Below, one piece after another: positions 1 through 62,330 of a stretch of DNA of 64,000 bases. The notes beneath the pieces are model-generated. The model saw nothing but the letters and a program-made list of their open reading frames with translations, made no database searches and was not told the origin of the DNA. Origin of the DNA: Octopus vulgaris (lineage: Eukaryota). The stretch is from positions 187,364,001 to 187,428,000 of the forward strand of contig OX597814.1 in assembly GCA_951406725.2 (NCBI GenBank), given 5' to 3'. How positions within the stretch are numbered: the stretch's first letter is position 1; every line of letters begins with the position of its first letter. The position numbers and the translations under genes were made by a program.

Positions 1-894
1 TATATAGACATGGGTGGGTGTTTGTGTGTATATGTGTGTGTGTGTCTGTAAGATTATAGAGCAAGCATAAATGAATAGGCATATACAGATAAATAGATAG
101 GAAACAGGCTAACAGAATTTGTGAGGTAAAATATTTTGATGGTAGATAAACTAATATGTCTATCACCAGCCATTATCACTACATTTTATTTTCTTAGCTT
201 AAACTTTAAGCATTCAATACAGCTATTTCAGTTTCTCATAACTCTATTTAATAGCAATGTTGGCTACAAGCCTAATCATAAGCATCTGAAATAATTTTAA
301 AATTCAACAGAAAAATATATTTTCTCATGATAAATCTTTTTTTTTTTTTACCTTTTCAAATAACACATATGCTGTTTTTAGACTATAATAATTAATTAAT
401 AAGAAAGTTTTATTGAATGCTTGAAGATTCAATGGATAAAATAAGTAAACCAACAATAATAACTGATTTCAAATTTTGGCACCAGGCCAGTAATTTGAGG
501 GGAGGGGCAAGTCGGTTTTATTAATGCCAGTGCTCAACTGGTACTTATTTTGTCGATCCCGAAAAGATGAAAAGCAAAGATGACCTTGGCGGAATTTAAA
601 CTCAGAATGTAAAGAGAAAGCAATAATAATAATAATAATTATCATTATTATTATTAGTTAATATAAATACATGACCACAATATAAATATATATAAATATA
701 TATAAATACATGACCACAAAGGAAGTGTATAATCAATCAAGCACACCACAGAAGTTGACTGGTAAATTATTTTAATGATGCTGGAGAGATGAAAGGCGAA
801 GTTAACTTTGGTAGGATTTGAACAAAGAACATCGACTAAATATAACAAGGTATTTTGTTCAAAGCCCAACTGATTCTGCTACTTATGCCCTTTA

Positions 895-1070
895 TCCCTT
901 TGGCATTCAAACTGGCCATATCCAGCCTCTCACACCTACCTTGTAATATCATTCTAAAAATAAATAATTACATCATTGAAATCTCAAAGCTACAAGACAA
1001 TACATGATTAACTCAAAACAATGTGAATAAATAAGCATTACATTTGACAGTATTCTGAATGCTAAAGGGC
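895..1070. mobile_element. piggyBac-like MITE family 1 (internally deleted copy)
   Basis: CCCTTTGGCATT...AATGCTAAAGGG termini in degenerate TTAA context. Homologous to 40360-40560, 52540-53102 and 61682-62330. Confidence 0.6.
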
Positions 1071-2182
1071 TTATGCCTATTTTAGCACAGTTCAGAATGT
1101 AAAGTTACATGACTTTATACTGTAATGCATTTTAAGTACAATTTCTACTGCTTCTGACACTACTATTTGGGGTAAAGATAATTATTTCAAATTTTAGCAC
1201 AAGGCCAGCAATTTTAAGGGGAAAGCTAAGTCAATTATATCAACCCCAGTGCTCCATTGGTACTTATTTTATTGACCCCAAAAGGATGAAAGGCAAAGCC
1301 AAACTCAGTGAAATTTGAATCCACTCGTGGTAAAAAAAGAAAATAATTTCCTAGATGCATAAAAATAAAATCTGTGTAGATTTGGGAATAAATATAGCCA
1401 TTTCAAAAAATCCTGTTTACTATTATGTGGATGCAATTCCAGCCTTCATTAAACATAAAGAAAACCTCCCATGGTGACCCCATTAAACATAATATCATAA
1501 CATAAAAACTCTTCAAAACAATCAATTTAGGCACAGTAGTAAGGTTGTGTGGTAAGGAGTTTACTTCCCAACCACATGGTTCTGGGTTCAGTCCCATGCT
1601 TAGCATCTTCAGTAAGTGTCTAAGTGTTTACCATAGTCACAGGCCTTGTGAGTGTATCTGGTGGACAGAAACTGAAAAAGGACAGTCATGTGTCTGCTGG
1701 TTTGTTTACATCTCCATAACTTAGTGTTTCCATCAGGCTTAGAAAATGTAAATAAGTACTGGGTCGGTTTGTTAGACTAAAATGATTCAAGGTAGTGCCC
1801 TTGCATAGCCAAAACCACATCATAAAAACCAAAATTTTACCATATTGGGAACCCTGCTCACATATATGGGTCAACGTAGCTGCTATAAACACACAGGTGA
1901 CCTAGACAACATCCAAAAGATCATTTAAACTGATTGGCAATGATTCAGTTACCAATACTCTTTAATCACTTTGTTCGGATCCCTCCCCCTGTGCTCTCTA
2001 TCACTACTACATAGCTTCTGCTCTCCCAAATTATCCACTCTGGCTCACTAATCTCTCTATCTTTGTCCTCATCCACACATTTCTGTAGGCACTGACCAAC
2101 AGATGTTAAAAAAAACTGAACCTCAACCGTACCGATCTTACCAGTTTGAGAAAGCTTGCAAAGATCATGAACACTACTCCAC

Positions 2183-2235
<53 letters not shown>

Positions 2236-2292
2236 TTAAACTTAGAATAATAATGTACTGGTTTCTTTACTATCCTTGTCAAATCTACTAAC

Positions 2293-2487
2293 CTAAAAAT
2301 AAGTTTCTATCAGCACTAACATGACCACAACCCATAGTTATCCAAAACATGAAACAGATCCATTTTCATTATTATTGTTAGGTGTATATCATTTGATTTT
2401 GGTTCTAGCAATGCCAACTTTATGTGGAGAATCATGTATTAATATAACCAGTTCATGCAAAGTGATCTTCACCAGTAGAGACACCAA
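2293..2487 (-). other. Candidate exon containing a possible main start (MGCGHVSADRNLFL...)
   Basis: Acceptor TTTTGTTTTTTTTTTACTTGCTACATGCATTCAG| and donor TAG|GTTAGT at 2293/2292. ATG at 2335 is in a strong context (ACTATGG) and open to the donor. Confidence 0.35.
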
Positions 2488-3367
2488 CTGAATGCATGTA
2501 GCAAGTAAAAAAAAAACAAAACAGAGAACTAAGTAGAAACTGTAAAACAAGCAGTAGTAAAAAGAGACAGGCAAGGAAAAGAAGATAACGAGAAAGGGGG
2601 TATAATGGAAAACTGATCTTGATTATGGAAGAACATAACATAGAGATGAATTGAAAAGTTAGAGATCAATAAAAAGGAGCTAGTATGCATGTATGTGTGT
2701 GTGTGTCTATATAACATAAAATTACAAAGCTAAAGAGAGAGTAATGCAAGTCAAAAACAGTCTTGGTGTTCAGTGTGTGTTGTGACCTTGCAAACAATAA
2801 AAAATGCTAGGCATGGATGAATACCTGTAAAGCCTGCCCGGGTCATGTATAAATGTACTGAGAGATTTATAAGATTGTTAATACATTCAGTGGGGCAGTT
2901 TTAAGATCTACAGAAATGCTGATTTCCATTCTCAGTCCAACTTTCTTTTAGTTATCCCGCCATTAAAAAACACTATTACAGTATTCTTTGTACTCATTCT
3001 GTCTGTTTCCCATTGTAGTTGAAATTGCTACAGTCCAACATGAAGAAAGAATCTGCTGGGATCCCAGAAATGGATAAAGAGAACATTGCTGTAGATAGGC
3101 AATGCATCAAGGGAATGCAGGTGCATAGAATAAACAAACTTTCAATTGATGCAGCCTGAGCCTAGGAGCTTTGGATTTATACATGTTTTAACTTTGATTC
3201 AGGCAAATTAATCAATGCACTTTGATAACGGAATGGATAGCATTTTAGGTGTACTGCACAAAAATCATGGACCATGATAGACGCATAAGGGATATGTGAT
3301 GTCTGGCAGTGAAAGCAAATACCTTCAAACAGCAAATATATGGGCAATGTAAACTTAAAGTTTAATA

Positions 3368-3556
3368 TCATCATCATCATCATCATCATTGTTTAACGTC
3401 TGCTTTCCATGCTAGCATGGGTTGGACGGTTCGACTGGGGTCTGGGACGCCAGGAGGCTGCACCAGGCCCAGTCTGATCTGGCAGTGTTTCTACAGCTGG
3501 ATGCCCTTCCTAACGCCAACCACTCCATGAGTGTAGTGGGTGCTTTTTACATGCCA
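3368..3556 (-). mobile_element. SINE family C
   Basis: (CAT)n then GTTTAACGTC..TTTCCATGCTAGCATGGGTTGGACGG...GGATGCCCTTCCTAACGCCAACC. Confidence 0.75.
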
Positions 3557-6394
3557 CTCTTTCTCTCTCTCATACACACTTTGCTTTTACCGTTTTCCCA
3601 TACTGAAGCACATCAGTGATACATTGCAAAATAATTTTTACCATGATGTCATAATAAAAAGCATTTATATTCTGCTATAAATACTCGATAAATATAAACA
3701 AAATAGTGTGTGGTCATTAGAACTGTTTGGAAACAGCAGGAAGGTATTTTGCCACTGGTCAATCTAAACTGCTGGACTTGCTTGTTTCTTACAACATTTG
3801 GCTAATCCTTAGATGAATTTTCCAAACAGTTGCTCATCTAAGTAGTGGCCGTACATGACAACTTCACTTCAGTAACCATGCTTCCAGACATAATTGGTTA
3901 CAATAAATGATAGCTGCTTCTACACACAGAACAAGTGCAAAGAATGTCATGCAAAGTCAACTGAAAGAATATACGTTCCTTTAAAAACAATATTTATAAT
4001 TGCTTATGTGTCTATGTATACATATCTATGTGTGAGAGAGAGAGAGGCGGGGAGAATTTGTTTTTTATTTTTTTATTTTTTGTCAGTCTTACTGTAATGG
4101 GAAGTCCAGTAAAAGTAACAGTTAAGACTTCTAGTTACCACTAATACTACCCCACCTCTAAGCATAGCATAGCATACTTTTAGACATGATATACATACTC
4201 TCCTTAGAGTTTTCTCAAAGTAACTTGTCCTAGATTTACACCCATCCACTCACCTCCAAAACATCCCAAATTCTGGGTATTAGAATTTTATCTGGGTGAT
4301 GGAAGAGGAGGGAAAAAAGGGAAGGGGAAATGGAGATGGTGGTGTGTATGTGAGGTAGGGGAGCTAAACACAAACTTGGTGCCTATAAAGATGATGGTGG
4401 ATGCTTGAGAAAGGAAAGGAAAATGAGGGAAACTGGGGAAAATTAATGAGTCGATAGCTTCTTGGAAAGATATGATACAAAGTTTAAGGAACAAAGAAGC
4501 ATATTTTAGTTCTCAAGGAAATAAGAAGGCACTGACAGATAGAAACAAGGGAGAAGTAATCTGAAGAAGCTACTAGATACACTGATGCAGATTTACCAGA
4601 ATGGACACTGGTGGAAAGGTGTATTGAAAGCATCAAGGAAGAAATATATAAGAAGCTGTGTCTATGAAAGGGAGCTGTTAAATTTTGAGATAGGTAGGAT
4701 ACTAGAACTAAGACTGAGTGAGCCATCATCATCAGTGATATCAGAGAAGGGCTGTGTTTATTTTCCTAAAACCTTAGAATGTAGGTAAACTCCTGCCAAG
4801 CTGCATCTGTGACCTGGTTTCAATTTTCAGTTGGCAGTATTTCACTTCACTGGTTGATATTTCAATTTTAGAGAAAGACTTACAATCACAACTTCACAAT
4901 TCCCTACTCCTAATCTTTAAATAAGGTCATTTATTGATTTCTTAAAAATGTTATTTGTAGGGAAGCAGTTCAGTCATCTGACCCAATTGCAGTATAATAA
5001 GTAATATTTATTCAACTGACCACCAGAGGTGTCAAGTACAAAGCTGATACCAGTGGGATGTGATCTCAGATTTACCTTGTAATTTCATACAGCAGTCTAC
5101 TGTTACGGTCATTCCATTACTTAAATAAACTATATAATTAGACAAGCACAAAATCCAATTTTAAGAACATTAAAAAATGGGACAAGGGATATCAGTTCAG
5201 TGGTTAACAATTAATATTTTATATTTATTGGTAACTAATTAAATAAAATTAAAGTACCACAAAAAAAGCTGCCTGATCACTGGACAAGTCTTGTCAAAAA
5301 TATACTCTTTGGCGCCTAAATTCATAAACTGTCAGTCCTCTTTGATTACATGCTTAATCACTACAACAGAGCAATAGTAGAATGTTGCTCACATCAATTC
5401 ATGATCAACTACAGTTAAGAGTAGCCAAAGAGTATTGTGTGGGTATCCAAATCAAGTATCTGATGGTGTATGTTGGTCTACACAAGAAATTAACAGTGTT
5501 ACAAGACATCAAATACAGAGTACAGAATATCATCTATCTAACACAATGTTTATCACAGTGTCAAAGCTAACAACTGCGTTCATATAAAAGGGCTCACAGA
5601 AAAGTGTTATTCTTGAACTATGGAAAAAATTGAATCCCACTTTGAAAGATCTAGAAATAAAAATCAGAATTTTAGATCTTCATTTTACAAACTTAATTGG
5701 ATCTCTGAGTTATATCATGGAAACATTAGTATAAAATAAAAGTTAAGTTGCACAAGTCAACACTAATTATTTAATTATTAACAATTTCTCTTGAACATGT
5801 CTATAAAAGAGAAAAGGCCATTTATATCTATGTCTATGAGTGCAAAGGTTGTATAGTTAAAGAGCTAGATTACTGAGAACACCTTGACACATGATCAAAT
5901 TTTACTATAACCATGTGTTGTGCTTCTATGCAAGATCCCAAACATCAGTTGGTCTAGTTTACTTGAATGAAAAACAAGCGTTTCAACAACTGAATAGTTT
6001 GTAGTAAGAAAGGTGCCCAGCTGTAAAAACAATTGCGGTAGCAAATAAACCTTTCTACTCATGCAGATCTAAAGATTTTCATCTTTACTATGTCAAATCT
6101 ATGCAATGAAGATGTAATAACTGATTGTATGTGAGCAAATATAACTTACAACACCTCAATTTTATGATGCATTTGCCACCCATATCAAATATCAGTTTCA
6201 TGATCAATTTTCCTATAAAGCTACAAGCTTAACTTTTTCTCAAAGTATGCTAATAGAGCTAAGGCACAAATAACAAGAACAGTTACTTAAATAACTATTT
6301 GACAAATTGTAATATGGTTTCAATGTTTTTAAATCTAGTTTGAAAATTTTTTATTACATAGCAATAAGAAAAATGTCCTATGTCTACAATGGGA

Positions 6395-6456
6395 CATATA
6401 TACCTACACACACACACACATATATATATATACATATATACACACACACAAATATT

Positions 6457-6489
<33 letters not shown>

Positions 6490-6595
6490 ACATACATATA
6501 TATACATATATACACATACACATATATATATATACACACATACATACATTTACATATATATACATCTATATACACATATGTATACACACACACAT
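6395..6595. repeat. Compound (CA/TA)n microsatellite
   Basis: Directly visible. Source of several spurious ORFs. Confidence 0.9.
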
Positions 6596-7254
6596 TCTGA
6601 ATGATACATAATATAATGTTTCTGCTTAGTGCTTATAATGATAGAAGCAAAGATCTCATGTCAAATAGCCAATCCTTACATATAAAGTATTGCAAGTCGA
6701 AAAATGTTAAGGTTTCCAATAAAGTGCTTGAGTACTCTATAGTTGCGTTGTTAGAATGGTCAGTGTAAATTTGGCTACTTCAATGATGTTAGAACAGGTG
6801 CTTTCACACAGGAAAAACTTAAGTGGAACCTGTCTGCAGTTAAGCTAACTAAAGAAAGTCACATAATTTGCTTACAAGAACATGAGAGAATGATCGCAAA
6901 GAACGTCTCGTTATTTCCTACATCAAGGATAAGTGCAAATGAACTCTGCAGACCACTCAAACTGGTCAGGTCAGTGCGGTCAATGTTCAGTTAGAACGTA
7001 CGTAGATCGATATATGTAAAGAAAACAAACATAAGCAGAAAGTTCCAGGTCTAGATGAAATATTTAGAATACTAATTAGTGCATGAGACATTGCATTGAA
7101 ATAACAGATTGTAATTTAACCCTGATTAAACACATCTTTCGTCAAACTAATCCCTCCAAACAATACAATCATGTATGCATCATTATTCAAAATGTTGTTC
7201 AGTTCCCAAACAGTAGAAAGTGCATTAATTTGTTTCGATGATGGTGATATACAA

Positions 7255-7527
7255 ATGAAGGCATATGGTTTAGTGGTTAGAGTATTTGGCTCACGATCGT
7301 GAGGCTGTGAATTCATTTCTAAGAGGTGTGTTCTGTCCTTGAGCAAGACACTTTATTTCATGTAGGGCCAGCTTTGTCATATTATGTGTCATGCTGAATC
7401 TCTGAGAACTATGTTAAGGGTACACATGTGTGGGCATGCTCAGCCACTTGCATGTTTATTTCATGAGTAGGTTATTCTGTTGATTGAATCAACTGGGACC
7501 CTCATTGTAACTGACAGAGCACCAGTA
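7255..7527 (+). mobile_element. tRNA-derived SINE family D (V-domain-like)
   Basis: Head GGCATATGGTTTAGTGGTTAGAG and core TGTCCTTGAGCAAGACACTTTA. Inverted homolog at 7845-8098. Confidence 0.7.
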
Positions 7528-7535
7528 GGGTGCTC

Positions 7536-8595
7536 TGTCATTGAGGGTGAGACACTAAAATACATGACTACAAGCTTAAAGTCTTACCAAACTACAACTA
7601 TTTCTGCTGGATCTTGAAGGACCATATATATATATATATTTTCTTGTGATAGGGAGTACAATTTGAACTTGCTAGTTCAGAAGAACAGAAACCCTTAGAG
7701 TAGCAACAGGGTGAGCAATGTTTTGATGTCTGAATGGTTTTAGAATGTTGTTATGTGAAAGACTGCCAATCAGTTCAATGTTGGGTGTATCTTTTTAATG
7801 CACTGTGGGTTTGTAATTGTACTTTATGAAGTTTATAAGGTTAGTATATATAGGAGCATTCCGTTGGCTATGACGACAAGGGTCCCAGGTGATACAATCA
7901 ACAGAACAGCTTGCTCATGAAATTAATGTGCAAGTGGTTGAACAATCCATAGACATGTGTGCCCCTAACGTAAGTTCTCAGGGAGAATCAGCGTGACACA
8001 GAGTGTGACAAGGCTGGCCCTTTGAAATACAGGTACAACTTACTTTTACCAGCTGAGTGGACTGGAGCAAAGTGAAATAAAGTAACTTGCTCAAGGACAT
8101 AAGGTTAGCAACTGTTCAATGAAGCAATAAAAGGCTATGTTGAAGTTAGACTAACTACAGCAAGACAGGTAATATAAATATAATTGTTCCAGTTCATATA
8201 GCTGTATTTTAATGCTATAATCTCCGTACTAGGCTTAATTCAATACAAAAGTGTTTATTTTAATGGTTAAAGATTTTGTAGAGATGTTAGAACATTGGAT
8301 AGAGCACCTTATGGTATTTATTCTGGCCCTGTGTGTTCTAGAGTTCAAATCCTGCTGAGGGTAACTTTGCCCTTCATCGTTCAGGGTCACTAAATAAAGA
8401 ACCAGTTCAAAGCAGCAAATAGATATCTGCTATGTTATAGGTATCTGTATTTATTACATGTGTTCTGAGTTCAAATTCTACTCCCTATTACAAGAAAATA
8501 TATACATGGTCCTCCAAGATCCACCAGAAATGGTTGTAGTTTGGTAAGACTTTAAGCATGCAGTCATGTATTTTAGTGTCTCACCCTCAATGACA
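7536..8595. repeat. Long inverted duplication: arms 7536-7669 and 8468-8595
   Basis: Manual alignment: 8 substitutions over 128 bp plus a 6-nt (TA)n length difference. Confidence 0.95.
7845..8098 (-). mobile_element. 5'-truncated family D SINE with TSD
   Basis: TSD ATAAGGTTAG at 7835-7844 and 8099-8108. Homologous to 7255-7527. Confidence 0.75.
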
Positions 8596-8601
8596 ACATA
8601 C

Positions 8602-8827
8602 CAGTTGGCAGGAAAGAATGCAGAGGGACCATCTTCTCTTCAGGTTTCATTATTTTACATCACAACTGATGGACAATTTCGTTGATGAGTATAGGTCTCC
8701 ACTGTGTCTTTGATAGCAAAAGTAACAATGGAGCTTCTGCAACTTGATGCAGAATAAGTGTTGCAAGACACTTCTATCAAAAGGCATTGTTTTTGTTGTT
8801 GTCAATCTTCATATTGATGTTTACATC
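8602..8827 (-). other. Candidate internal exon (226 nt, uORF-rich or non-coding)
   Basis: Acceptor TTTGTTTGTGTCACTTACACTTTAG|G and donor CTG|GTATGT. Unique, non-repeat sequence. Confidence 0.5.
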
Positions 8828-11371
8828 CTAAAGTGTAAGTGACACAAACAAATGGTGGGCTTCTGCACAGTTTCCAACTGCAAAATTCTAAAAACAAGAT
8901 ATTAGTCAAGGTGCTATATGGTGTGTGATCAAACTTGGATTCACATGTTATAAAATGAACTTCTAAATCAAATTGCCATATATGCACGCAAGTACTATTT
9001 ATTATTATACATTATTATAATGTTTTTCTTTATTTATGTTTAAACATGTGAAGGTACATGGCTGTGCACTGTGTTCTTGAGCAAAGCACTTCATTTCAGG
9101 TTGCTCCAGTCAACTCAGCTGTAAATGGCTACCCTTGTGAGTGACTGCTGTTCAATTCATGTAATGTTTGCCTAATGTAGCCAGTGGCATCATTTGAATG
9201 TTATAACAATGCAAAGCGCAATGCGATAATCTGGTTGATACTGTTATATCGTGATGTTTGGACACAGATATTTCAACATATAAAATATAATTGCAAACAA
9301 ACAGTCGTCGCTCTTTACATATTCTAAATGATCTCTTGTGAGTGGACAAAGGGTTCCTCACTTCTTGTGCAGAGAAGAATTGTAATCAACAGAATCAACC
9401 TCAAAATCTTACTGGTACTCATTTAAAAAAAAACACGAAAAAGTAATAAACTAAGTTAACTATAATGAAATTATGAGACACTGCGTGCATATATACACAC
9501 ATGCACTATAAAGCATCATATTCTGCTCTTATCATATAGACAAATGATTGCTTGCTTCTAGAATCAAAATAATAACCAGATGGGTATTACAAATTGCTCT
9601 GAATGTAAATATATTATTTAGTTTGATAATTTGATGGGAAATACTATAACTAGCACTTTGTACATAGCATAATGTGCAATAGGGGTATCTCATGAGATTC
9701 AGCATACAACATTAATTAGAAATATATTTCAGAATCTTTTTTGCTTTGTAATTCTTACATATGGCAGGAAATAAAGTATATAATAAATTAAGGAAGTGTC
9801 ATAAATAGGATTAAATATATTAATATCAGTCTCTTAATTAGTAAAATTTGTCTATATGACACCTTGTTTCCATTCTGATATGCTAATGTCAGGCAGGTGT
9901 TAGTAAAAGTATTACAAATTTCCTTCATTATAAACAGAGGCGTGCCTTTTATATTCAACAAAACAGTGTCAGATATGTCTCTGTTCAAACTCAACACAGA
10001 AAACGTTGTTTCCTAACATTCCACTCTCTAAAGCAACAAATGATGTCAAGTGGAGACAGTGAAGAGTTCCTGGAGCAGTTGTTCAACTTGCTAAAATAGA
10101 TTTTGACTGTTTTTGATGCAGGAGCTATATTTTAAGTCATAACCACAAGGAAAAAAACACAAATGAGATGACCCATAACTAAAAAGCTGCATGAAATAAG
10201 GTTTGCTACAATTAACTCAATAAGCTGACCTTTTGGATGAAAACTAATTAGATAGCTTTTGTAAACATTCATCAGATGAACTATTTATTCTTGATAACCA
10301 GAGAGCATATGAATCATTGAATCACAGTGGATTAAGTACAACACAACAAGCTGAGAGTTTGGCATTTTTTGATGTACCTAAAACAGTTGACTCTCACATG
10401 GCCCCATCCAACTTGACTGAAAATAGATATTACAAGAAGTAACAACTTGTCATTCTAATCAGGAGTACCACTGCAGAGTGGACTAGTAGTTTATAAACCT
10501 GAATTTTAAGGTGAATTCCTTCCCTGAGTATAGCAAGGAGGAGTGGATTCCAAAATACTGAATTATTCAAGACATACTCTATAAACATGGGTTGTGCATT
10601 CAAACAGATAAAGAAGCTAACCATGTAATTTACCACATGTAAAAAAACTTTTATTTCAGTTCAAAATGAGCATTTCTTAATGTGCTAGGCCACAATATTT
10701 CCATTTCCAAAGTGGGCATCCTGATACACCTATTTTTCTACCTGATAGATGTTCTCATCGTTTTAAGTCACTTTTCCATGATCAGATGGAGTTTACTGAG
10801 GCATATTTTCAATAGCTGGATGCCCTTCCTGTCACCAACCCTAATTTGTTTCCAAAGTAAGGTAATATTCCCTCCTGGCTGGACAGGATTTTGCAGAATA
10901 TTAGAAGCGAATGACACTGTTTATGATAGTGAAGCTCATCTACAACATGCGATGTCAGGACAAGGAGAGACAAACATCCGCTAGCATATGAGCATATATA
11001 TAACATTCACACACTAGCTTTCAGTTTTCACCAGGGGCTATACTAGAGGACTTTTAGCCAAGGTGCCACACAGTGGGACTGAATGCAAAACCATGTGGCT
11101 GAGAAGCAAACTTTTTCACAACATAGTCATGACTGTGCCATGTTTTGTGTATGAATAACTGAATGTGAAATAAGGTGTTCTATACACAAGCTATTACTTG
11201 TAATCTATAATCAGAACCAGGGTTTGGATCCAATGACAACTGGCAGAAATTCTTTTTGAACCATCTCAGATCAATCAGCTGCCTATTTCCATCAGCTAGG
11301 TGAATTGAGATGAAGTAGAATAGTGTTCTGTCTAGAAACACAACACAATGCGTACTATAGTAAGGTTTTAA

Positions 11372-11608
11372 CCCTTTTGTTACTGTATTTATTTTGAGAA
11401 GCTCTGTGTTTCTTTCAATTATTTTAAATATAACACAGAATTTAATAAAATAACTTAGTTATCATTAAGCTAGTGTTAGATGTTGTTATGTGAAAGACTG
11501 CCAATCAGTTCAATGTTGGGTGACTAAGGTTTGGTGGAAGATTTTAATTCAGAACTTTTGAAAACAAAACATTTGTACTACAGAGCCAGTTTCAGCCGGG
11601 TTGTTAAC
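11372..11608. mobile_element. piggyBac-like MITE family 2 carrying a 43-bp templated insertion
   Basis: Starts TTAA|CCCTTTTGTTAC. A related diverged copy lies at about 37266-37446. Bases 11480-11522 are identical to 7745-7787. Confidence 0.5.
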
Positions 11609-14600
11609 GTGACTGAGAAGCAGGCATATCACTCATCCACCTTGCCTCTTAGCTGGCTTTGACAAAACATGAATACATTGTTGAAGACCTGTGCAGATAT
11701 CTAATACAATAGATTTGACTTAAGTCGTGTCAAACCTCACTGTAAATAGCCCAAATTGGATATTTCCTTGGATGCTGATATCAACTCAATATGAATTCAT
11801 TATAAAGAGCAGGCCTTTTATAATTGATTCTGTGTTTCTTGGGTCTTGTATTCAGTTCATTACCAGCTGTCAAATGAAGTTGTTAAACCACATCTCTTTT
11901 TCTCATTATACTCCATATGACGACTGAATTGTTCTAATAGAGGGTCACCTTATGAAGGAAAGACAGAAAAGAAATACCCCACTCAATCAACCCAATATAA
12001 TATCATCACATAAATCCTGAACTATTTACAAATATTTATAACAAAACAGATATTTCTTGTTATTTTTACAAAATATTCAGTAACTTTAATTTACTGGAAA
12101 ACTTTTCTAACATTATATTCAAGCAGCTGAATTTAGAGACACAGTATTATTTTTGAACCTATAATAAACCCAACTTTACTTATGATTTGCACAAAAACAA
12201 AACTGAAGGTATTATTGAGCAGAATATTACTTTGGCTCAAACATGTAGAGTGTACACAGATAAAGCTTTGGGATTTAAGTGACTTGAAGAATTTGTACAA
12301 GTTTATCAACCCCAAATCATTTTATTATGAATCAAGAGTTACTACTATTCTCATAAAGATGCACAAACTAAGAAAATATATACCTCTTGTATTAGTTATT
12401 AAACAAGGATACTAATCTTATATTTTTATTCAGGCAGAATGGATTAATAAATATATAAAGATGATTGGGAACTGTCATTGTATATGATATATATATCAAT
12501 TGTATTTTTAAAAATTACTTTGAAATAATGAGAAAAAGAAATCTGTTATAAGCTTGTCCCTTCAATACTTCCGGACTTTCTCATTCCTCCCCTCACATTC
12601 AGATAGTGATAATTTGAAATGGCCCTCCCACATATGCCTGATCCACTTAATGACCTGCAATATATGAAAATAAATCAATAAGCTTTAGGTTTCTTACAAC
12701 TTGTTCCTCATATGGAGTACTTTCTCAACAGTACAAGTTCCACAACAAACTTATAAAATAAACTTTAGCTCAAATGTTCACAATGAATTATTCAGATAAC
12801 TGTCATTTTACAATTCTCTAAACTACTACAGAAATTTGATACATACAGATTTCATTCATAAAATATAAAAACAGCACATTTTAGAATATATGAGAAGTAC
12901 TGACCCTAATAAAGGTGTTAAACTCAAAGCTTATCACTGCTATTAGTTTTTGCTTTAATGAGCTTAATTAGCTAGATGCAAGCAATGATAAAATCCGATT
13001 TGTGTGTATGTGTGTGTGTGTAAGAATGTGTAGATCAGGACTTAAAGCTGTTATTGTTGACATTTGGAGAGAAAATTGAAGGCAATATTTTTACCAGGGA
13101 TTTTAAGGGTTAAAACCGATGTGATTCTGACTATGTAGGAGTAACTCTAGGTTCAGAAAATGACAGTTCAGTGAACTATTGCTAAACAGAAGATAACTTT
13201 GTTTGTTTTTAAATCTTGTGTCCAAGAAGTATATTATACAAAATACGTATGAACCAGACATGAAGGGCACATTAAAATATGTTCGGTTAATTTGAGTTCG
13301 GAAAATTGGAAGTTAATGCAACTATATGTTATAGAAAGACCAGAGGTTGGTTGTGGTCAGTCCTGAAAAGCAAAATCTGGTATTGTAGGGGTAAGGAGCA
13401 GAGTGGCTATATCATGAAGATGGGCCAAAGATAAAAGGTTTTCAGTAGGGAGGGTCTATTATTAGTGAAGAGGTATTTTTCTTTATCTTGATGTAAACAA
13501 AAAATACTCAACGAAAGAATAAAACAAACTAATTTGATAATGGCCAAATAGATATAAACTGTATCGGGTTTCATTCAAATCTACAAAACTCTAGCTAATG
13601 GAATTTAACCAAAGTATGTAACCCGAAAGCAAAATAACCACAAAACTACCTACATAACCGCCAGTTTATTTAAGTATTTACTAGAAATAACCAGGAAGTA
13701 AATGGTGTAAACCTTAAGAAAACTTAGTCAAGCCGAAATGCTAAGAGCAAAAGTGGCAAGTGAAGGGAGGTTACTAGGCAAAACTATGTAAGTTATGCTT
13801 GAGTAAAAAGGAAAAACCGGTGTTTTCAATGAACTGGCATGCTCTAAAATTATTGAATATGTTAGACTAAGCTTATCTTTACATGAAGACTTTTTAAAAA
13901 CTTTCTTTTTAGTACTTTCTAGTTTTTATTATTAAGAAAAAGTACCGGGTTTAAACATCAGTTAACTCAAACATACAAATGATTTCCGATTGATAAAACA
14001 CCTAAGTCAATTAATTTTCAAGCATGAATTCAAATTCAGAGCAGTTCCTATTCCCAAGAAAGAACAGGAAATCCCACACTATACATATATTTCTGATACA
14101 TCTATTATTCTCTACCTGCTTTACTTCTGACAAATGAATTTTTTTTCGTGTCCTCTGAACAAGGCAACCAGTACAAATGGACCGCCAAACGAAACCTGCT
14201 GTATTTATTTCTAGGATTCTTCTATTGAAACATCTAACCAATTTCATTATTCTGATTCCAAAGAGACAAACCTTACACAAGCATGTGTAAATGTGTCTGC
14301 ATGAATCACCTCCTACTCAATCCTCTACATATTTTTACAATAAGGATGTAAATGTGACTAATGAAAAAAACTGTAACCAATTGAATCATATTTTTATATA
14401 GAAATCTAAAACAAACAAAATTTAAAAGAATGTTACACAAGTATTATGGGGGGTAAAATTGGATGAGGTATCCAAAAAGATGTTTAGATATTCAGTAAAT
14501 CAGAGTAAATAACGACTAATAATCAAACTTTTTGCATAAGCCCGTTATACACAATGTAATTTGAACAACACAATACGAGTAGAGAGAGAAAAAAAAGACA

Positions 14601-16416
14601 TGTTTGGTGTGTTGTAAAGCTAAACACTGGTCAAATACTCTATTTACTAGCATCTTGTTAACATTCATTTTTAGATTAAGAAGCATGCTTTTCAGAAACC
14701 AGGAACAACCTAAAACTATTGTTAACTTTTTAAAACAAGACAAACATAAGAGCCATTTAATAATGTTATGGCGCATAAAGAAATCTTTGTACAAGTCGTA
14801 GTTAGATATTTTCTTTAAAAAATACAAAATTTACTTGATAATAAAAGAGTGTACAAATAGTGCTAATTTCAGATATATTTGCTTAATCGTATATAGACAA
14901 ATAAACCAAATAAGTTTCCCATTGAAAACGATATTCTATCTCCCACTCTTTTATGTGTGTGTGTATATATATAAACATACATATATACACAAAAACATGC
15001 GCGTATAAATATATATAAATATATACATACTAGATTGAAAATATTTACAAAAAATAGGAACTGCATCTATTTTTAAAAACGACATAGTTTATATTTTCTC
15101 ATTATTAAATAATGAAATAATATTAATATTAAAGAAGAAATGCGTAAACAATGAATGGCTCCAAATATTTTCGTGAAACAATTGATCGGTACCTTGGTAT
15201 ACTGTAACAGCTACTCTAAATATAATTAACCTGAGAATATTGTTTGAATAAATATTTCCAATTTAAAATGAGGGAAAACATCACTAAAAATCTTACAGTA
15301 TTAATTTGAATTATCAGATTTTCAAGAGTGAGTAAACAATGGATTGAAAGACAGAAAGAACAAAAGGACCAACGGAGAAACAAGTTGGAGCAACTAAAGA
15401 AAAAACAGCCGTTATATTCGGAATATTTGTGAATAAAAGTGAAAATACGACGATTGATGAGATAATGGGCAAATTAATAAGTTTTTGCATTCAGTTTATT
15501 CGATGACACGAAGATAGTATGAGAAAAGAATGGATATTGGTTGTAAACAATGAATAAATAAGAATCACACTTCTCCATTCCACAAATTTTAACAATAAAA
15601 AGTTGTCAATGAACAAATTAAAAAATAACAGATGACAAAAGATGTATTCAATGAACGGTATTAAAGTGATGCAGACAATAGAACGAGGTTGATTTTTATT
15701 GCTTGTTAGTTTTGTTGTTGACGCTTGTTTTTTTTTGTTTTTTTGGCAAATGGAATCATCAAATGAAACCTTTATTAAAAATGAAGCAGTCTAAATACTT
15801 TAAAACTAGTACCATGAAAAACAAATGTTCTTGAAAAGTTAAACGGGCTGGCTAATTTCATAGAAATGTGTAACATCTGACATAGGCTAAGCAAATTAGA
15901 CAAGAGGGGGGAAATAATGTGATAAGACAGCTACAGTAGATAAAAATTATCAGCAATGTTCAGGGTTGACAACTAGTTTCTAGGTCAAATAAAAAGAAGT
16001 ACGAAGAAAAATAGTTTTAATAAGGAAAAAACAATCGAAATGCAAGAGAGAAAAATGCACAAACAGTTTATACAATAGCTTCGATGTTGGAGAGAAATAT
16101 TGAGGATGTCTACAAGAAAACAGTAAATAACAATAAATAAATAAGGGGTATTCTAAAAGTGAGCGGAAGACGAATAAGATCCATTAATCTAAATTAGTGA
16201 AGAGCGACGTGTTGGAAATAAGATCGGATGAAATAAATACAAATTACCTAGCAATTAATAGCGTAAATATTAGTTGAGAAACTATCACAGATGCAAATGT
16301 TTAAACACCAGACACAAAATAAAACGAGTGTAATCGTTGAAAACAATAACAAATGAAAGTGGAAAAAATTAGCATCTAAGATTTCTCAATTTATAGAAAT
16401 GTTTATAGAATATGTG

Positions 16417-16448
<32 letters not shown>

Positions 16449-16649
16449 AGTTCTAGTTATCCCATCAAGTTTGTTGAGCTAATTACAATGTTGATTTGAG
16501 AAAATAAAAGAATTTAAATGGAACCAGAAAAAAAATAAAAAGAGAAAGAAAAATACAGAAGGAGTCCAATAAAAGAAAACAAATAAAGAATTGTGGGAAA
16601 AGGAGGCTTGGTGAAAAGTAAATAAAAAAAGGGGAAATGATGAAAAGAA

Positions 16650-17108
16650 AGGCTCCATGACACGCAGGCGCAGAACACGGTTGCGAAGAAGCACATGTTT
16701 TCTGGCCAAGGAGGGGACGGAAGAGTCGTAACATCAGAAATCGATTAAGACTAACAAATATAAAATTCTGTGGATGAATAAATTTCAATGTAGAAGGAAA
16801 TAGGAACAAACTAGCTTTAACCAGAAAGAAATAAAAGCGATAATTTGTATGATTTCAGCGGAAGAATAGTTTAAAAGCAAAAACCTGATAGGCATTTTCC
16901 CAACTTCACACGATCCCGCTTATTCTAATATTTACATGACGAATACATATTATAAATTACATTTATTGCATCTATATGCCTAAAAGTTATAAAGTTTAAC
17001 AACTACAGATGAAAACATTAAATAAGGAAGAAAACTTTTACAGCAGCAGCTGTAGTAACTTCGAATGCGACCTAAGAAATGCATGTATGTGCGTATATAT
17101 ATATAAAT

Positions 17109-17139
<31 letters not shown>

Positions 17140-19660
17140 ATACACACACACATGCCCCTTTGCTGTTAGATCATTTACCGGTATATTCATTGATCAGATC
17201 AGATAACGTGCTAAGAAAGAAACATTAGGAAACCGATTTTAAACAAATGTGTAACTAATAGTGAAAAAAAAAAAGTCCTTACCACGTCGAAATCTTCATG
17301 ATTGAAATTTTGTTGTGAAGATCCCACCGTAAAATGTCTGTTGTTAGCTGAGTATTTTAAAGTTTCTTTTCTTTCCAAAAATCTTAAATATTAATCCGTT
17401 CTGTTGCTTGTTTGGGGAAATAACATGCAAACACTGCTGTGTTGTATTAACCTTTTCAGGAGTGTTAAGATTATAAATACATGTAATAATAGATATACAC
17501 GAGTTTGTTATATGTACATATAATAAATATTGATATGTGTGTTTATGAAAATATGTGAGTTATAATATATATAGGCTGTTTTGTCTATAGAAATATATAT
17601 AAATACTTGATGTTGTTTCAAATAATTTTTTATAAATAAATATCAAAATATGTATATATAAGAGAAAGAGAGAGAGAGAGAGAGGGTGATAAAAAAAATA
17701 TATATGAATATATGTGTGTATATCACAAACAACACATACACACACACAGAGAAATTGTAATATGATTACTACTCCTACTACTACTGTTATTGAAAGTGTT
17801 GCTGCTGTGAGGAGTAGTACTTGCGTATTGTAGTGTGGAGGAAGGGAGGGAGGGAAAAATGAGAAAGCGAAGGGAGGGGAAGGAGAAAAGAAGGAATGAA
17901 CGAACGAACTAAGAGGAGACAGAGGAGGCCTTAGCACCTTCGCAACAATGCTATACAGCTTTGTTAATGGCTGATGTACTTCTTGGGTCGTCGCAAAATG
18001 CCCTATTCAGCACTTCCTACACAATAGTCAGTCGGTGCTGATGAATATTAATCAGGGCTAGGGCTGTGGCCCGAGAATGAGGATATGATAACAAGACAAC
18101 TATAGCAGCGAGACACAGAGAGAGAGAAAGAAAGGAAGGAAGAGAGGCGGCGATATATAGAGAGAGGGGGAGAACGACGGCAACAACGGGAGGAGGAGGA
18201 GGACGACGATGAAAACGTTAGCAGCAGCAGCGGTGGAAGTGCTACATTAGTATGACTGGATAACTAGATTGTTTCTCTCTGGTGGTTAGAAGAATTAAAG
18301 CAAATATTTGAATAGATTGTGATCTAAGTATGTTAAGAGAAAGAAAAGGCAATAACAAAACAAAAACCAAAAAGAAAGAAAGACTACAAATAAAAGAGGA
18401 GAGAAAAATCAGGTAACAACTGCAGGTAAATGAGTAAATAAATATAATGTCCCGAATATATTAAACAATTAATGCAATGTCTGACAGAACAATTAATAAA
18501 AAAAAAAAAACGAAAACAAAACAATAAAAATTATCTGCGGAAATATCTAGTTAGATGTAATTTTCAGTTTCTACAAAGGTCATGGATAAAAATCAAAAAC
18601 AAAACCAAAAAAAATAACTCAAGGAAAAAAAATTAATAAAGTAAACAAAAACGGCGTAAACACGGGGTTAGTGTGTGTGTGTGGCGGGGAGAGGAGGGTG
18701 ATGTTGGAGATGTTTGGAATTTTATTTTGAAAAGAAATAATGCCATTTGGAAAGAGATAAGTGAAATAAATCAATGTTTGAATTAGGGAGTGGGAGAAGC
18801 GAGCAGCAAATAAAATAGGCGGATGGTTGGAAGAATACGAAGGAAAAGATTGCTGCTAGGGTAAACAAGTACTGTTTACAAACTAAGGACTATTTATAAG
18901 GTGAACGATTTTATAGAGCCAACGAGATAAGACAAGCCTAAACTTGTGGACAATTTTAACGTCTTGTCAGATTTTTTAATGGTAGAAAAAGGAAAGCCAT
19001 TTTATACGGTATTTTACGGGCTTTGCGCCATTTAATACATATTGCTCTCTCTCTCTCTCTCTTTTTTTTTTCTTTCGGTTTTAATATTTGAAATAAAAAT
19101 AAACTTTAAAAACCTTACAAGGTAGACGAGACATTTTTATTAGCAGTGTACGAGAAGAGGGAGTGTATGAATAGTTTTTCTGATTTGGTGGGGAGGAAGA
19201 AAAGTATTAGTAGTTTTTATTAGTAAGAAACTAGTCAGCAAGTACTTTATGAATATTAATTTGATTCCCTCGCCCCCGTGTCACTACCACCACCGCCGCC
19301 GCCACCATCTGTCTCGCCTCCTCCATTCTCGGTCGGTAAAGCGCTGTTCAACATCTATCTTCAGTTTTAGCTTCTGTCCTGTCCCAGCAAAGCCCAGTGA
19401 TCTGCATAGTGTAACAGAGACAACGTTCGAAGTGCAAATAAATAATGTGGATCGTTGGTTGGTAACTGTGGCCTGTTGCTCCCCCGAGGGAGAGGGAGGG
19501 AGAAGAAAGAGATCTGGCACCTCTCCACACACACACACACACATACACAAACGTCGAGCAGAGAGAGAGAGAGAGGGAGGGAAGAGAAAGAAAGAAAGAA
19601 ATGTAGCGAGTGAAAGGGAGAAAAGGAGAGAGAGAGCAATTAAAGAAATGTGGAGATAGA
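16650..19660. promoter_or_regulatory. Putative unmethylated promoter region
   Basis: SINE-free, elevated CpG, GA-rich tracts. NRF1-like ACGCAGGCGCA (16662-16672), ETS cores (CGGAAG at 16718; CACTTCC at 18011), and two ATGAATATTAAT sites (18041, 19249). Confidence 0.5.
17283..17990 (-). other. Candidate first (5' leader) exon of a minus-strand transcript
   Basis: Donor GTG|GTAAGG at 17283/17282. Lies in a CpG-retaining, repeat-free block. The putative intron below it is strongly A-rich on + (U-rich on the sense strand). The 5' boundary is a guess. Confidence 0.45.
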
Positions 19661-19680
19661 GATCAATGTTAACAACTCAC

Positions 19681-19830
19681 TACATCGCTTCCTTCACCGA
19701 TATCATCACCAAACAATCAGCTAATAAGTTAATATTACTTATGTAACTGGCTTTCTTTTCTTTTATTACATGGTTTCCTTTTCGCTGGTTTCTGCCTGAG
19801 AAAACAGCAGTTTATTTACATCTATTCCTG
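19681..19830 (-). other. Candidate alternative upstream leader exon
   Basis: Donor GTA|GTGAGT at 19681/19680. Further minus-strand donors at about 19119 (CTT|GTAAGG) and 21599 (GCG|GTAAGA). Confidence 0.3.
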
Positions 19831-20489
19831 TTAGAAAAGTCACCACAAATCAATAGAGAAGACGACTACCATAAGTTTGTGATGAATAAACATGCATTAG
19901 ATTAGCTAATTTTGACAGAATATAACAAAGCTGGGCGACATGATGCGTTCGTGGGGGGAAAATAATTATCACGACAGGCATTTTTGATTTGAAAATTTAA
20001 AATGTTAGCTCTGCAAAGCTTTAGATAAACCTAACAACATAATATTAGTATGTCAAAGTAAACGTATGCATAAATACGAATATTTGTATTTGATTTTGTA
20101 CATAGATATATATATATATATGTGTTCACGCCTATCTGTGTGTGCACACGAGAAAGAGAGAAGAGATAAAAATATTGCTCATTCAGGTGGGCTTTTGTGT
20201 ACGTGTGTGCGCGGCCAGGTATAAAGCTACTCTCGACTCTGAGCTCTTAGAAATAAAACCTATATCTATGTGTAAAGCGGAATGTGCTGTGTGCGTGTGT
20301 GTATATACATACACACACGCACTCACACACACACATACAACAGCCCCGCTTTGCACCACACTGCTGTTTACATACATGTATTAGTGTGTGTATGTGTGTG
20401 TGTGTATATATATATATACACACACACGTACAGAGTCGCGCGCAGACATAAATGTACTTATATCACGTATGTTAGACAAACAAACACGC

Positions 20490-22860: not shown

Positions 22861-23797
22861 TTCTGGTTTTATTGGCCACAAGGGCTAACATAAATCAAAA
22901 AAATATGTAAGGACAAACACAGGATGAAAAGTACAAAGGGTTTTGCAAAAAAGAAAAGTCACAGCGAAAAATATAACAAATAAAACTCCCAATAGGGAGG
23001 GGGTGCTTTGATAGGTTACTTGTGGAAAAACCCATAAAAGCCAAGGGAGCCTGGTCAAAAAGGCGTAGAGAACCCCTTCTCCTTTAATATTACATTTTTT
23101 TTCTTCCCCCAGGTGTAACCTCAGAATTCGTCCCTTCATACTGGCCATTTTACCGACATTCACCCACCTTTCAATAAATTTGCTACAAGACAGCACTTCC
23201 CTCTAAACTCTTGTCTTCCTTTTCAAGTGGAACTTTAAAAAGTTGATGAGGCCTTGGCCAACAAGGAAAGTGTCTGACTTTAGCCCTTTCAAATGGGTCC
23301 ACCACTAGACACTAGGACAAAGGAATATTGCCTTGCCCTCCTGGTTAAAGGAGGTTGGCAGGGCAATCTTCCCTATGGATTCAGCTGATAGCTGGATCCG
23401 TCCTACATGCGACAATAGCTGCTCAACATAAACCCACAGGTCAGCAATACTTGGGCACTGGACAAGTGCTTGCAGAACGGTTTCGTCGCGCTGAGTGCAC
23501 CTCGGGCAGGCCTCGCTGACGGCACTTCCGTGCTGGTAGAGTTTATCTCGAACAGGCAGAGCCCCTCGGTAGCACCGCCAGGCGAGGGACCTTTGGAAGT
23601 TATCCATGAGCCCAGGCCCAAAAGTTCTTACGAACAGACTGTTTAGCTGATAATTGTTGATGCCTAGAGTTTCCCTGAGAATGTCGTTGCACTTTTCCTC
23701 CACTAACCCTCTATAGAACGCTAGAGTGGAACTACTACCGATTGCATTGCCAGCTTGGTGGAGGGCAGTGAGAGCTTGACGGCACTTGTGGTGCCCA
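22861..23797 (-). mobile_element. 5'-truncated L1/Tx1-clade LINE (ORF2 C-terminus with zf-RVT-like motif plus 3' UTR), frameshifted
   Basis: Minus-strand frame reads ...AFYRGLVEEKC...FGPGLMDNFQRSLAWRCYRGALPVRDKL...EACPRCTQRDETVLQALVQCPSIADLW, the CxxC..E(T)xx(H)xxxxC..W zinc-binding region after the RT of L1/Tx1 elements. It continues after a frameshift (VWWTHLKG...FIERW) and ends TTAGCCCTTGTGGCCAATAAA near 22865. Confidence 0.85.
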
Positions 23798-24387
23798 TAT
23801 AATAATAAGTAAGTAATTCTAATTTAGGCGTAAGGCCAGCAAGTTCAGAGGAGGAGGTTAGTCAATTACATCAACCTCAGTGCTCAACTGGTACTTATTT
23901 TATCAACCCTGAAAGGATGAAAGGTAAAGTTGATCTCATGAGAATTTGAACTCAACGTAAAGATGGATGAAATGCAGCTAAGAATGCTAATAATTCTGCA
24001 AGTTCACCAACTTAGTAGTAGTAGTAGTAGCAGTAGTAGTAGTTGTTGTTGTTTCAAATTTTGGTACAAGGCCAGCAATTTCAGGGGTTGGTTAAGTCAA
24101 TTACATCAACCTCAAAAGGGTGCAAAGGCAAATTTGAACTCAGGAAATAGAAAAGCTGCTAAGCATTTTGCTGGTTTCAAATTTCAGTACAAGACCAGCA
24201 AGTTCAGGCAAGGGGGTAAGTTGATTACATCAACCCCAGTGCTCAACTAGTACTTATTTTATCGACCCCCAAAAAGGATGAAAGCCAAATTCAGCCACAA
24301 CAGAATTCAAACTCAGAACAAAAAAGACAAAATTCTGCAAGCATTCTGACTAGTGTGCTAATGGTTCTGCCAGCTTATAATAATGAT

Positions 24388-38656: not shown

Positions 38657-39078
38657 GGATCTTTTCGGTTTGAACGGCAGTTTTTTCTAGTGGTGTCATA
38701 TGAAATTGTCACCCATAATTACGACCCTAGTATCGATCTATTGCATTTCAATCTGTTTTAGGGTTAGGGTTAGGGGTGGGGGGAAGGGTATCTTTTTTTC
38801 TTCACAAATGTAAATAAACCCAATCTGTTTCTTAAATGAGCGACATATTCATATGGCACAGAATGTTTTTTTTTACCTCAATAGACGTCAGTGATTGGTT
38901 GAAATTGCAGAAATTGAAGAAAAAAAAACAACAAATATCTTACAAACAATAGAATTTTCTCAATAAAGCCAAGAGAAAAAGATGTTTTATAAACACATTA
39001 TACCAGTATAGGAAGTTTAACATTTTTTTAGTTACCTAGAAATTATGTTAAAAACTGCTGTTCAAACCGAAAAGATCC
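38657..39078 (+). mobile_element. Non-autonomous TIR DNA transposon (MITE), Merlin-like, with internal TTAGGG repeats
   Basis: TIRs GGATCTTTTCGGTTTGAACGGCAGTTTTT ... AAAAACTGCTGTTCAAACCGAAAAGATCC. 8-bp TSD AATAGCTA/AACAGCTA (1 mismatch). Second copy at 61852-62277. Superfamily inferred only from GG termini and the 8-bp TSD. Confidence 0.85.
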
Positions 39079-61681: not shown

Positions 61682-62330
61682 CCCTTTAGAATTTAAACCG
61701 GTCGTATCCGGCCCAAATATTCTGCCTGTTCTATGTTTAAGCAAGCCAAATCAAGCCTCTCACACTTACCCTGCAAAGTCATTATAAAAATAAACAATTG
61801 TGTGATCAAAATCTTTAAGTGACAATACAATGTATATTTTAAAACAATGAGGGATCTTTTCGGTTTGAACGGCAGTTTTTAACATAATTTCTAGGTAACT
61901 AAAAAAATTTTAAACTTCGTATACTGGTAGAATGTGTTTATAAAACATTTTTTTCTCTTGGCTTTATTGATAAAATTTTATAGTTTGTAAGATATTTGTT
62001 GTTGTTTTTCTTCAATTTCTGCAATTTCAACCAATCACTGACGTCTATTGAGGTAAAAACATTCTGTGCCGTATGAATATGTCCCTTGTTTAAGAAACAG
62101 ATTGCGTTTATTTACATTTGTGAAGAAAAAAAGATACCATTCCCCCCAGCCCTAACTCTAACTAACCCTAACCCTAAAACAGATAGAAATGCAATAGATC
62201 GATACTAGGGTCATAATTATGGGTGACAATTTCATATGACACCGCTAGAAAAAACTGCCGTTCAAACGAAAAGATCCACAATGTGAATAAATAAGCATTA
62301 CATTTGACAGAGTAATCTGAATGTAAAAGG
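61682..62330. mobile_element. piggyBac-like MITE family 1, interrupted by the TTAGGG MITE
   Basis: TTAA|CCCTTTAGAATT ... AATGTAAAAGGA|TTAA. The body matches 895-1070 on both sides of the nested insertion. Confidence 0.65.
61852..62277 (-). mobile_element. Second, inverted copy of the TTAGGG-containing MITE, nested in a piggyBac-like MITE
   Basis: Same TIRs. Internal sequence is the reverse complement of 38657-39078, with CCCTAA repeats at about 62150-62176. 8-bp TSD ACAATGAG/ACAATGTG. Confidence 0.85.

What the first reader, a model, noticed from the sequence alone, without database searches (positions are those of the whole stretch)
7536..8601. ~130-bp inverted duplication starting exactly at +7 of a candidate 5' splice site: intronic dsRNA and possible ADAR substrate
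Seen: 8468-8595 is the reverse complement of 7536-7669 (8 substitutions in 128 bp plus a TA-length indel). Most of it is unique sequence rather than a dispersed repeat. One arm abuts the minus-strand donor GTATGT (8601-8596), leaving only the U1-binding hexamer outside the helix. In the minus-strand pre-mRNA the 8 differences become 3 G:U wobbles, 2 A:C mismatches and 3 other mismatches. Known: A:C mismatches in long duplexes are preferred ADAR sites, and coleoid cephalopods have exceptionally extensive A-to-I editing. Inference: the helix could be edited or could modulate use of this donor. A neutral repair by-product is an equally live explanation.
Basis: partly seen in the sequence, partly recalled or inferred. 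Interest (0 to 1): 0.72.

Follow-up and report, generated by a model that had tools for sequence, protein, structure and literature searches.

The report
DNA-repair scar in a giant intron
A 130-base stretch inside a huge intron of the ZMIZ1 gene has a flipped copy 0.8 kb away that a related species lacks; the copy was likely made during DNA-break repair, such pairs are common in this genome, and no working splice site was found beside it, so it is probably an ordinary scar that would at most be edited incidentally.

Summary
The inverted pair is real: 7536-7669 / 8468-8595, 8 substitutions plus a 6-nt TA indel, 2 hits genome-wide. It lies in a ~130-kb intron of a minus-strand ZMIZ1/tonalli gene, so it is transcribed as pre-mRNA whenever the full-length gene is. 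A contig from a ~4-5% diverged relative joins 7532 to 7666 through 11 other letters while keeping the right arm: the left arm is a lineage-specific insertion. Its junctions show an 8-nt fold-back tract and 4-5-nt microhomologies, matching repair-mediated duplications (Pace 2009, PMC2671141). The '+7' edge is that microhomology. 8602 is not a donor of any conserved coding exon, no joint is listed there, and 100 equally consensus-like GT sites lie in this intron. The arms diverged at a neutral-compatible rate with no compensatory change among the rows shown; the G:U/A:C pattern is just five transitions. Eight such two-copy inverted pairs occur in 1.06 Mb. The helix is predicted to form; editing could not be tested. 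Verdict: likely neutral repair scar; new member of a known kind.

The parts
7536..7669 (+). Left arm: derived inverted copy (acceptor) of 8468-8595, with an expanded TA run
   Evidence: absent from organism B contig X6 record 25, which joins 7532 to 7666
8468..8595 (+). Right arm: ancestral template (donor), unique sequence
   Evidence: present in contigs of organisms A, D, E and (8502 onward) B, running on into its flanks (table 8)
7512..7540 (+). 12-bp fold-back hairpin, 5-nt loop: 4-bp primer 7520-7523/7529-7532 (present in B) extended by 8 nt 7533-7540; its last 5 nt are the microhomology to 8595-8591
   Evidence: sequence, DNA fold -14.1 kcal/mol, B matches only up to 7532; snap-back origin inferred
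7666..7669 (+). 4-nt microhomology at the rejoining junction, shared by the ancestral flank and the template end 8471-8468
   Evidence: B alignment resumes at 7666; edges +/- a few nt
8596..8604 (-). Donor-like motif (7 of 9 match to consensus); no exon or joint found
7256..7526 (.). Old dispersed-repeat (SINE-like) copy whose 3' end flanks the insertion site; inverted to a second copy at 7879-8032
   Evidence: SINE label recalled, not from a call
7879..8110 (.). Dispersed-repeat copies in the loop between the arms (another at 8313-8410)
   Evidence: very high contig depth
1..64000 (-). Whole window lies in a ~130-kb intron of a ZMIZ1/tonalli ortholog
   Evidence: flanking exons are contiguous in mollusc homologs P0007, P0034

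Best explanation
The left arm is an inverted copy of the unique segment 8468-8595 that a related species lacks, likely written in during germline double-strand-break repair and likely drifting neutrally in a ~130-kb ZMIZ1 intron. Inferred steps: a break near 7532; the 3' end folded back on a 4-bp hairpin and added 8 nt; its last 5 nt annealed to 8595-8591 about 1 kb away and copied ~125 nt; the strand rejoined the far end through a 4-nt microhomology, losing ~11 nt. The pre-mRNA is predicted to fold the arms into a long helix that ADAR could edit incidentally (untested); the donor-like motif beside it is likely a chance cryptic site.
For: Shown: empty site in organism B (X6 record 25: 7445-7532 + 11 letters + 7666-7915; X5 record 17 also stops aligning at 7666 with 106 letters left over); right arm retained with flanks in A, B, D, E; gap edges coincide with the duplicated tract within 3-4 nt, which a random deletion in B would rarely do; fold-back hairpin and microhomologies; no polyA or target-site duplication seen. 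Polarised by outgroup rows: 3 of 8 differences hit the right arm (8489, 8505, 8514), 4 the left (7573, 7599, 7607, 7659), 1 ambiguous (8561/7570); no position where both arms share a derived change. 8 differences versus 5.4-6.7 expected from the 4.2-5.2% species divergence (P(>=8) 0.18-0.35). 8 inverted and 8 direct two-copy pairs (>=50 nt, >=85%, gap 20-5000) in 1,064,000 bases, this one included; 3 of 3 other inverted pairs tested are two-copy genome-wide. No ZMIZ1 homolog residues fall between the two flanking exons. 100 GT sites with >=7/9 consensus match in 130,451 nt.
Against: The empty site rests on low-depth contigs (3.4 and 5.1) from one study, from runs only guessed to be RNA, and the 11 letters were not printed. 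25 difference rows were hidden, so the polarisation may be incomplete; 128 bases give little power against weak selection. An arm end falling exactly at +7 of a >=7/9 site has a chance of about 0.3% (6% within 10 nt), though the pattern was picked after the fact. This pair is the only unique-sequence one and has the shortest loop among 9 inverted pairs (>=100 nt, >=80%, gap <=5 kb) in the intron, so it is among the intron's best predicted helices. 8596-8657 shows no listed substitution in B.
Confidence: 0.85

Rival explanations
1. The repair copy has been co-opted: the new helix controls a cryptic (poison or 5'-UTR) exon ending at 8602, directly or through ADAR editing.
For: Donor-like motif 7/9 next to the arm; helix predicted at 0.93; a stop-containing exon would be degraded and hard to see; motif shows no listed change in B, D, E.
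Against: No joint at 8602 among 15 of 50 and 15 of 39 joints shown; X6 record 31 runs unspliced across 8602; the 3 acceptor candidates within 500 nt give exons with 3-4 stops in every frame; E has a 9-nt deletion at 8621 and B differs at 14 of 339 bases there, like the flanks; arms decay on both sides.
Confidence: 0.05
2. The duplication is older and both arms were ancestral; organism B lost the left arm by deletion of an unstable inverted repeat.
For: 8 differences is at the upper side of the A-B divergence; B carries the left-arm letter at 8561; no left-arm data for D or E.
Against: B's gap matches both ends of the duplicated tract within 3-4 nt and removes the fold-back filler; B keeps 11 letters found in neither flank alignment, as expected of a pre-insertion allele. 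Either way the left arm is the copy.
Confidence: 0.06
3. Assembly artefact of the reference.
For: None beyond the general risk with inverted repeats.
Against: Arms differ at 8 sites; an independent run of the same organism label (X11) has a contig 7442-7565 with 0 differences across the left junction and another, 8073-8591, on the right arm. X11 may be the assembly's own sample.
Confidence: 0.01

Closest known systems
Repair-mediated duplications (RDs), Pace et al. 2009, PMC2671141 (read: abstract, introduction, first results sections, passages)
   Same: Insertion >=50 bp with one other copy within 5 kb (their proximal class: mean 162 bp, distance peak ~1.2 kb); empty orthologous site; microhomology 2-9 nt + deletion 1-15 nt + filler, their commonest junction class (10 of 39); no polyA.
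   Different: They surveyed vertebrates and found RDs inside interrupted transposons; this one is in an invertebrate genome and sits at the end of a repeat copy, not inside it.
Snap-back SD-MMEJ / Pol theta templated insertions (PMC5728401, PMC7165422; passages read)
   Same: 3-4-nt inverted primer repeat <10 nt apart priming short synthesis that creates a new microhomology: fits the 4-bp primer, 5-nt loop and 8-nt filler.
   Different: Pol theta insertions are mostly 3-30 bp from templates within ~30 bp; the main tract here is ~125 nt from ~1 kb away, closer to SDSA or MMBIR-type synthesis. The enzyme cannot be named.
Intronic inverted-repeat dsRNA edited by ADAR (coleoid ubiquitous editing, PMC9068888 passages; inverted Alu pairs, recalled)
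   Same: [quoted passage not shown]
   Different: Arms are unique sequence, not a transposon family; editing here not measured.

Membership tests
Repair-mediated duplication (Pace 2009) | Insertion >=50 bp with exactly one other copy | tested here: met
   134/128 nt, 2 hits genome-wide, coverage 1 in 1.06 Mb
Repair-mediated duplication (Pace 2009) | Donor within 5 kb and more than 50 bp away | tested here: met
   799 nt between arms
Repair-mediated duplication (Pace 2009) | Empty orthologous site in an outgroup | tested here: met
   X6 record 25, X5 record 17 consistent; one study, low depth
Repair-mediated duplication (Pace 2009) | Microhomology, deletion or filler at junctions; no polyA tail | tested here: met
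   5-nt and 4-nt microhomology, 3-nt filler within an 8-nt fold-back, ~11 nt replaced
Repair-mediated duplication (Pace 2009) | Acceptor interrupts an annotated transposon (their detection device) | tested here: not met
   Insertion is ~6 nt past the end of a repeat copy; 7670-7730 has no repeat hit. A search filter, not a mechanistic feature
Pol theta TINS | Insertion 3-30 bp templated within ~30 bp | tested here: not met
   Met by the 8-nt filler only; main tract ~125 nt from ~1 kb
ADAR substrate duplex | Both arms in one transcript | tested here: met
   Both in the same ZMIZ1 intron by homology; inferred, not from stranded reads
ADAR substrate duplex | Long stable duplex | tested here: met
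   Predicted only: -199.5 kcal/mol, mean pairing 0.93
ADAR substrate duplex | A-to-G clusters in RNA versus matched DNA | not testable with these tools
   Only assembled contigs, none on record as RNA
Splice-regulating RNA structure | A used splice site next to the helix | tested here: inconclusive
   No conserved exon, no listed joint, one contig reads through; tables cut, contigs drop rare forms
Splice-regulating RNA structure | Conservation and compensatory substitutions | tested here: not met
   Left arm absent in B; 0 of 8 differences compensated; no shared derived change among rows shown

The most novel reading that the evidence does not exclude
Repair-made inverted doublets of unique sequence, about 7 per Mb or roughly 20,000 in this genome, are an unannotated, fast-turnover source of lineage-specific intronic dsRNA for the very active coleoid ADARs, and this one created a species-specific edited helix that tunes a cryptic exon of the chromatin co-regulator ZMIZ1.
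Probability: 0.06. Interest if true: 0.6.

Novelty: new member of a known kind. Interest (0 to 1): 0.16.

Why it matters
As a single locus it matters little: a well-resolved example of a repair-mediated duplication with empty site and a two-step junction, in an invertebrate. The by-product of the check is of more use: two-copy local inverted duplications run at about 7 per Mb here, are invisible to repeat annotation, and are a testable class of candidate editing substrates in an animal group known for heavy editing.

Tried and rejected
Dispersed repeat or MITE ends: rejected, arms are two-copy. Coding exon at 8602: Pfam scan of 105 of 141 minus-strand frames in 1-20,000 plus 2 plus-strand frames gave nothing above a curated cut-off (3 weak hits, E 0.02-0.04); tblastn of 17 ZMIZ homologs gave no exon inside the window. 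Recursive splice site: the motif is preceded by CTG, not AG. Expression and editing: no RNA holder listed on record; I laid 5 of 10 'RNA?' holders and 3 of 3 large runs; contig depth in 8559-8835 was 0-1.8 and 7675-7815 was uncovered in X11-X13: holes prove nothing, so left-arm status in D and E is unknown. Splicing or reverse-transcriptase artefact for B's empty site: unlikely, the skipped stretch lacks intron ends and 11 other letters are present. Excess change in the left arm (6 of 8, my first count in note and the Poisson lines): dropped after 8489 and 8561 were re-read. Competing repeat pair 7351-7502/7879-8032: outcompeted in the fold model. Earlier scan findings: none near. Literature: no listing with 'repair-mediated duplication' or 'templated insertion' among the 15 of 5,303 shown for cephalopod/mollusc terms, no 'ZMIZ1' among 10 of 1,054 shown; these searches are too loose to show absence from print. 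PMC9105294 passages gave nothing on A:C mismatches; that preference is recalled. Species name: cluster look-up returned no names.

Full report
Observation. The alignment and BLAST confirm that 8468-8595 is the reverse complement of 7536-7669, with 8 substitutions and a 6-nt TA indel. A genome search found 2 matches in 2.8 Gb, and the arms have coverage 1 in 1.06 Mb of self-comparison. The flanks are a mosaic of dispersed-repeat fragments (7256-7526, 7850-8110, 8313-8410).

Gene context. Frames in 464 kb around the window led to an exon whose best named relatives are ZMIZ1-like proteins. Pfam Zmiz1_N matches lie to the right of the window on the minus strand. tblastn with 17 homologs placed coding exons at +188 kb, +152 kb and +89,817..89,713, then the next at -40,739; these two are contiguous in mollusc homologs and carry GT and AG ends. 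The whole window is therefore inside a ~130-kb intron.

Is the donor used? No run is on record as RNA, and only contigs could be laid. No joint at 8602 is among the 15 of 50 or 15 of 39 joints shown, and one contig of organism B runs unspliced across it (X6 record 31). This is weak, since contigs drop rare forms. The three acceptor candidates within 500 nt give exons with stops in all frames. The intron holds 100 GT sites with an equal or better consensus match, one per 1.3 kb (consensus recalled). An exact +7 coincidence is rare by that count (0.3% for four arm ends, 6% within 10 nt), but the pattern was chosen after the fact and the edge has another explanation.

Origin. In organism B (4.2-5.2% diverged) one 340-nt contig aligns to 7445-7532 and 7666-7915 with 11 other letters between (X6 record 25); a second sample of the same study also stops aligning at 7666 (X5 record 17). 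The right arm is present with its flanks in A, D, E and B. So the left arm is the inserted copy and the right arm the template. The sequence B shares ends in a 4-bp hairpin (7520-7523 with 7529-7532, 5-nt loop). In the window this hairpin is extended by 8 nt (7533-7540) to a perfect 12-bp stem, and the last 5 of these are the first 5 of the arm. At the other end 7666-7669 is shared by the ancestral flank and the template. Inferred mechanism: break, snap-back synthesis of 8 nt, template switch by 5-nt microhomology to 8595, ~125 nt of synthesis, rejoining by 4-nt microhomology with loss of ~11 nt. The +7 edge is where that microhomology lies. Limits: low depth, one study, the 11 letters not printed, edges good to a few bases.

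Selection. Outgroup rows put 3 of the 8 differences on the right arm (8489, 8505, 8514), 4 on the left and leave 1 ambiguous; none is compensated and no derived change is shared by both arms among the rows shown (25 rows hidden). X11 and X12 carry a further change at 8509 that turns a G:C into G:U. Eight differences compare with 5.4-6.7 expected from species divergence: not slower than neutral, with low power. The right arm differs from E at 6 of 128 shown sites against 33 of ~650 overall.

How common. In 1,064,000 bases from four chromosomes there are 8 inverted and 8 direct two-copy pairs (>=50 nt, >=85%, gap 20-5000), this one included; 3 of the 7 other inverted pairs were tested and all 3 are two-copy genome-wide, one of them in another intron of the same gene. 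A rough extrapolation is 20,000 per genome; some longer ones may be low-copy transposon ends. A second templated copy, of 7737-7787, sits inside a repeat at 11473-11522.

RNA structure. The arms are predicted to pair (mean 0.93; duplex -199.5 kcal/mol) and to displace the neighbouring repeat pair. The fold-back hairpin frays the end next to the motif, so the firm helix starts near +11/+12. Among 74 inverted pairs >=100 nt in the intron, 9 have gaps <=5 kb and this one has the shortest loop. In squid, ubiquitous editing falls mostly in 3' UTRs and introns overlapping repeats (PMC9068888, passages).

Comparison. The element meets the mechanistic criteria of repair-mediated duplications of Pace et al. 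2009 (PMC2671141; first two of eight text parts and passages read), including their commonest junction class. The 8-nt filler resembles snap-back SD-MMEJ (PMC5728401, passages); the long tract exceeds typical Pol theta insertions (PMC7165422, passages). No supplements were read; editing-site tables in cephalopod supplements could bear on whether this intron is edited.

Verdict. Real feature, likely neutral repair scar (0.85); splice-regulating role about 0.05; new member of a known kind; interest 0.16.

Noticed in passing
window 11473-11522 and 7737-7787: A second two-copy templated duplication (direct, 96%, 3.7 kb apart): about 41 nt copied from just right of the left arm replace 11 nt of a high-copy repeat, with microhomology at both ends; near-identical, so likely younger.
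   Followed up: partly
window 17280-17400 and 17600-19700: Purine-skewed, repeat-poor stretch with a strong minus-strand donor-like motif near 17281; could be an internal promoter and 5' exons. Homologs P0011 and P0076 start at the Met of the exon after this intron, so a short ZMIZ1 isoform lacking Zmiz1_N is plausible.
   Followed up: no
L008:1209-1359 and 1533-1683 (G000:C1:187305209-187305683): Another two-copy inverted pair (151 nt, 93%, 174-nt loop) in a downstream intron of the same gene; a better hairpin than the one reported.
   Followed up: partly
window 38657-39078 and 61852-62277: 432-nt inverted pair, 92% identical, 22.8 kb apart, two-copy within the window.
   Followed up: no
window 7351-7502 and 7879-8032: Inverted pair of old repeat copies (79%, 156 nt) that crosses the arm helix; in organism B, which lacks the left arm, it would have no such competitor.
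   Followed up: partly
window 23308-23823 minus: 172-aa open frame that looks like the end of a LINE-type reverse-transcriptase gene (recalled resemblance).
   Followed up: no
G000:C12:30023926-30026596 and C2:50037758-50039717: Long two-copy inverted pairs (794 nt at 98%, 453 nt at 91%) about 1.1 kb apart; recent inverted duplications or low-copy transposon ends.
   Followed up: no
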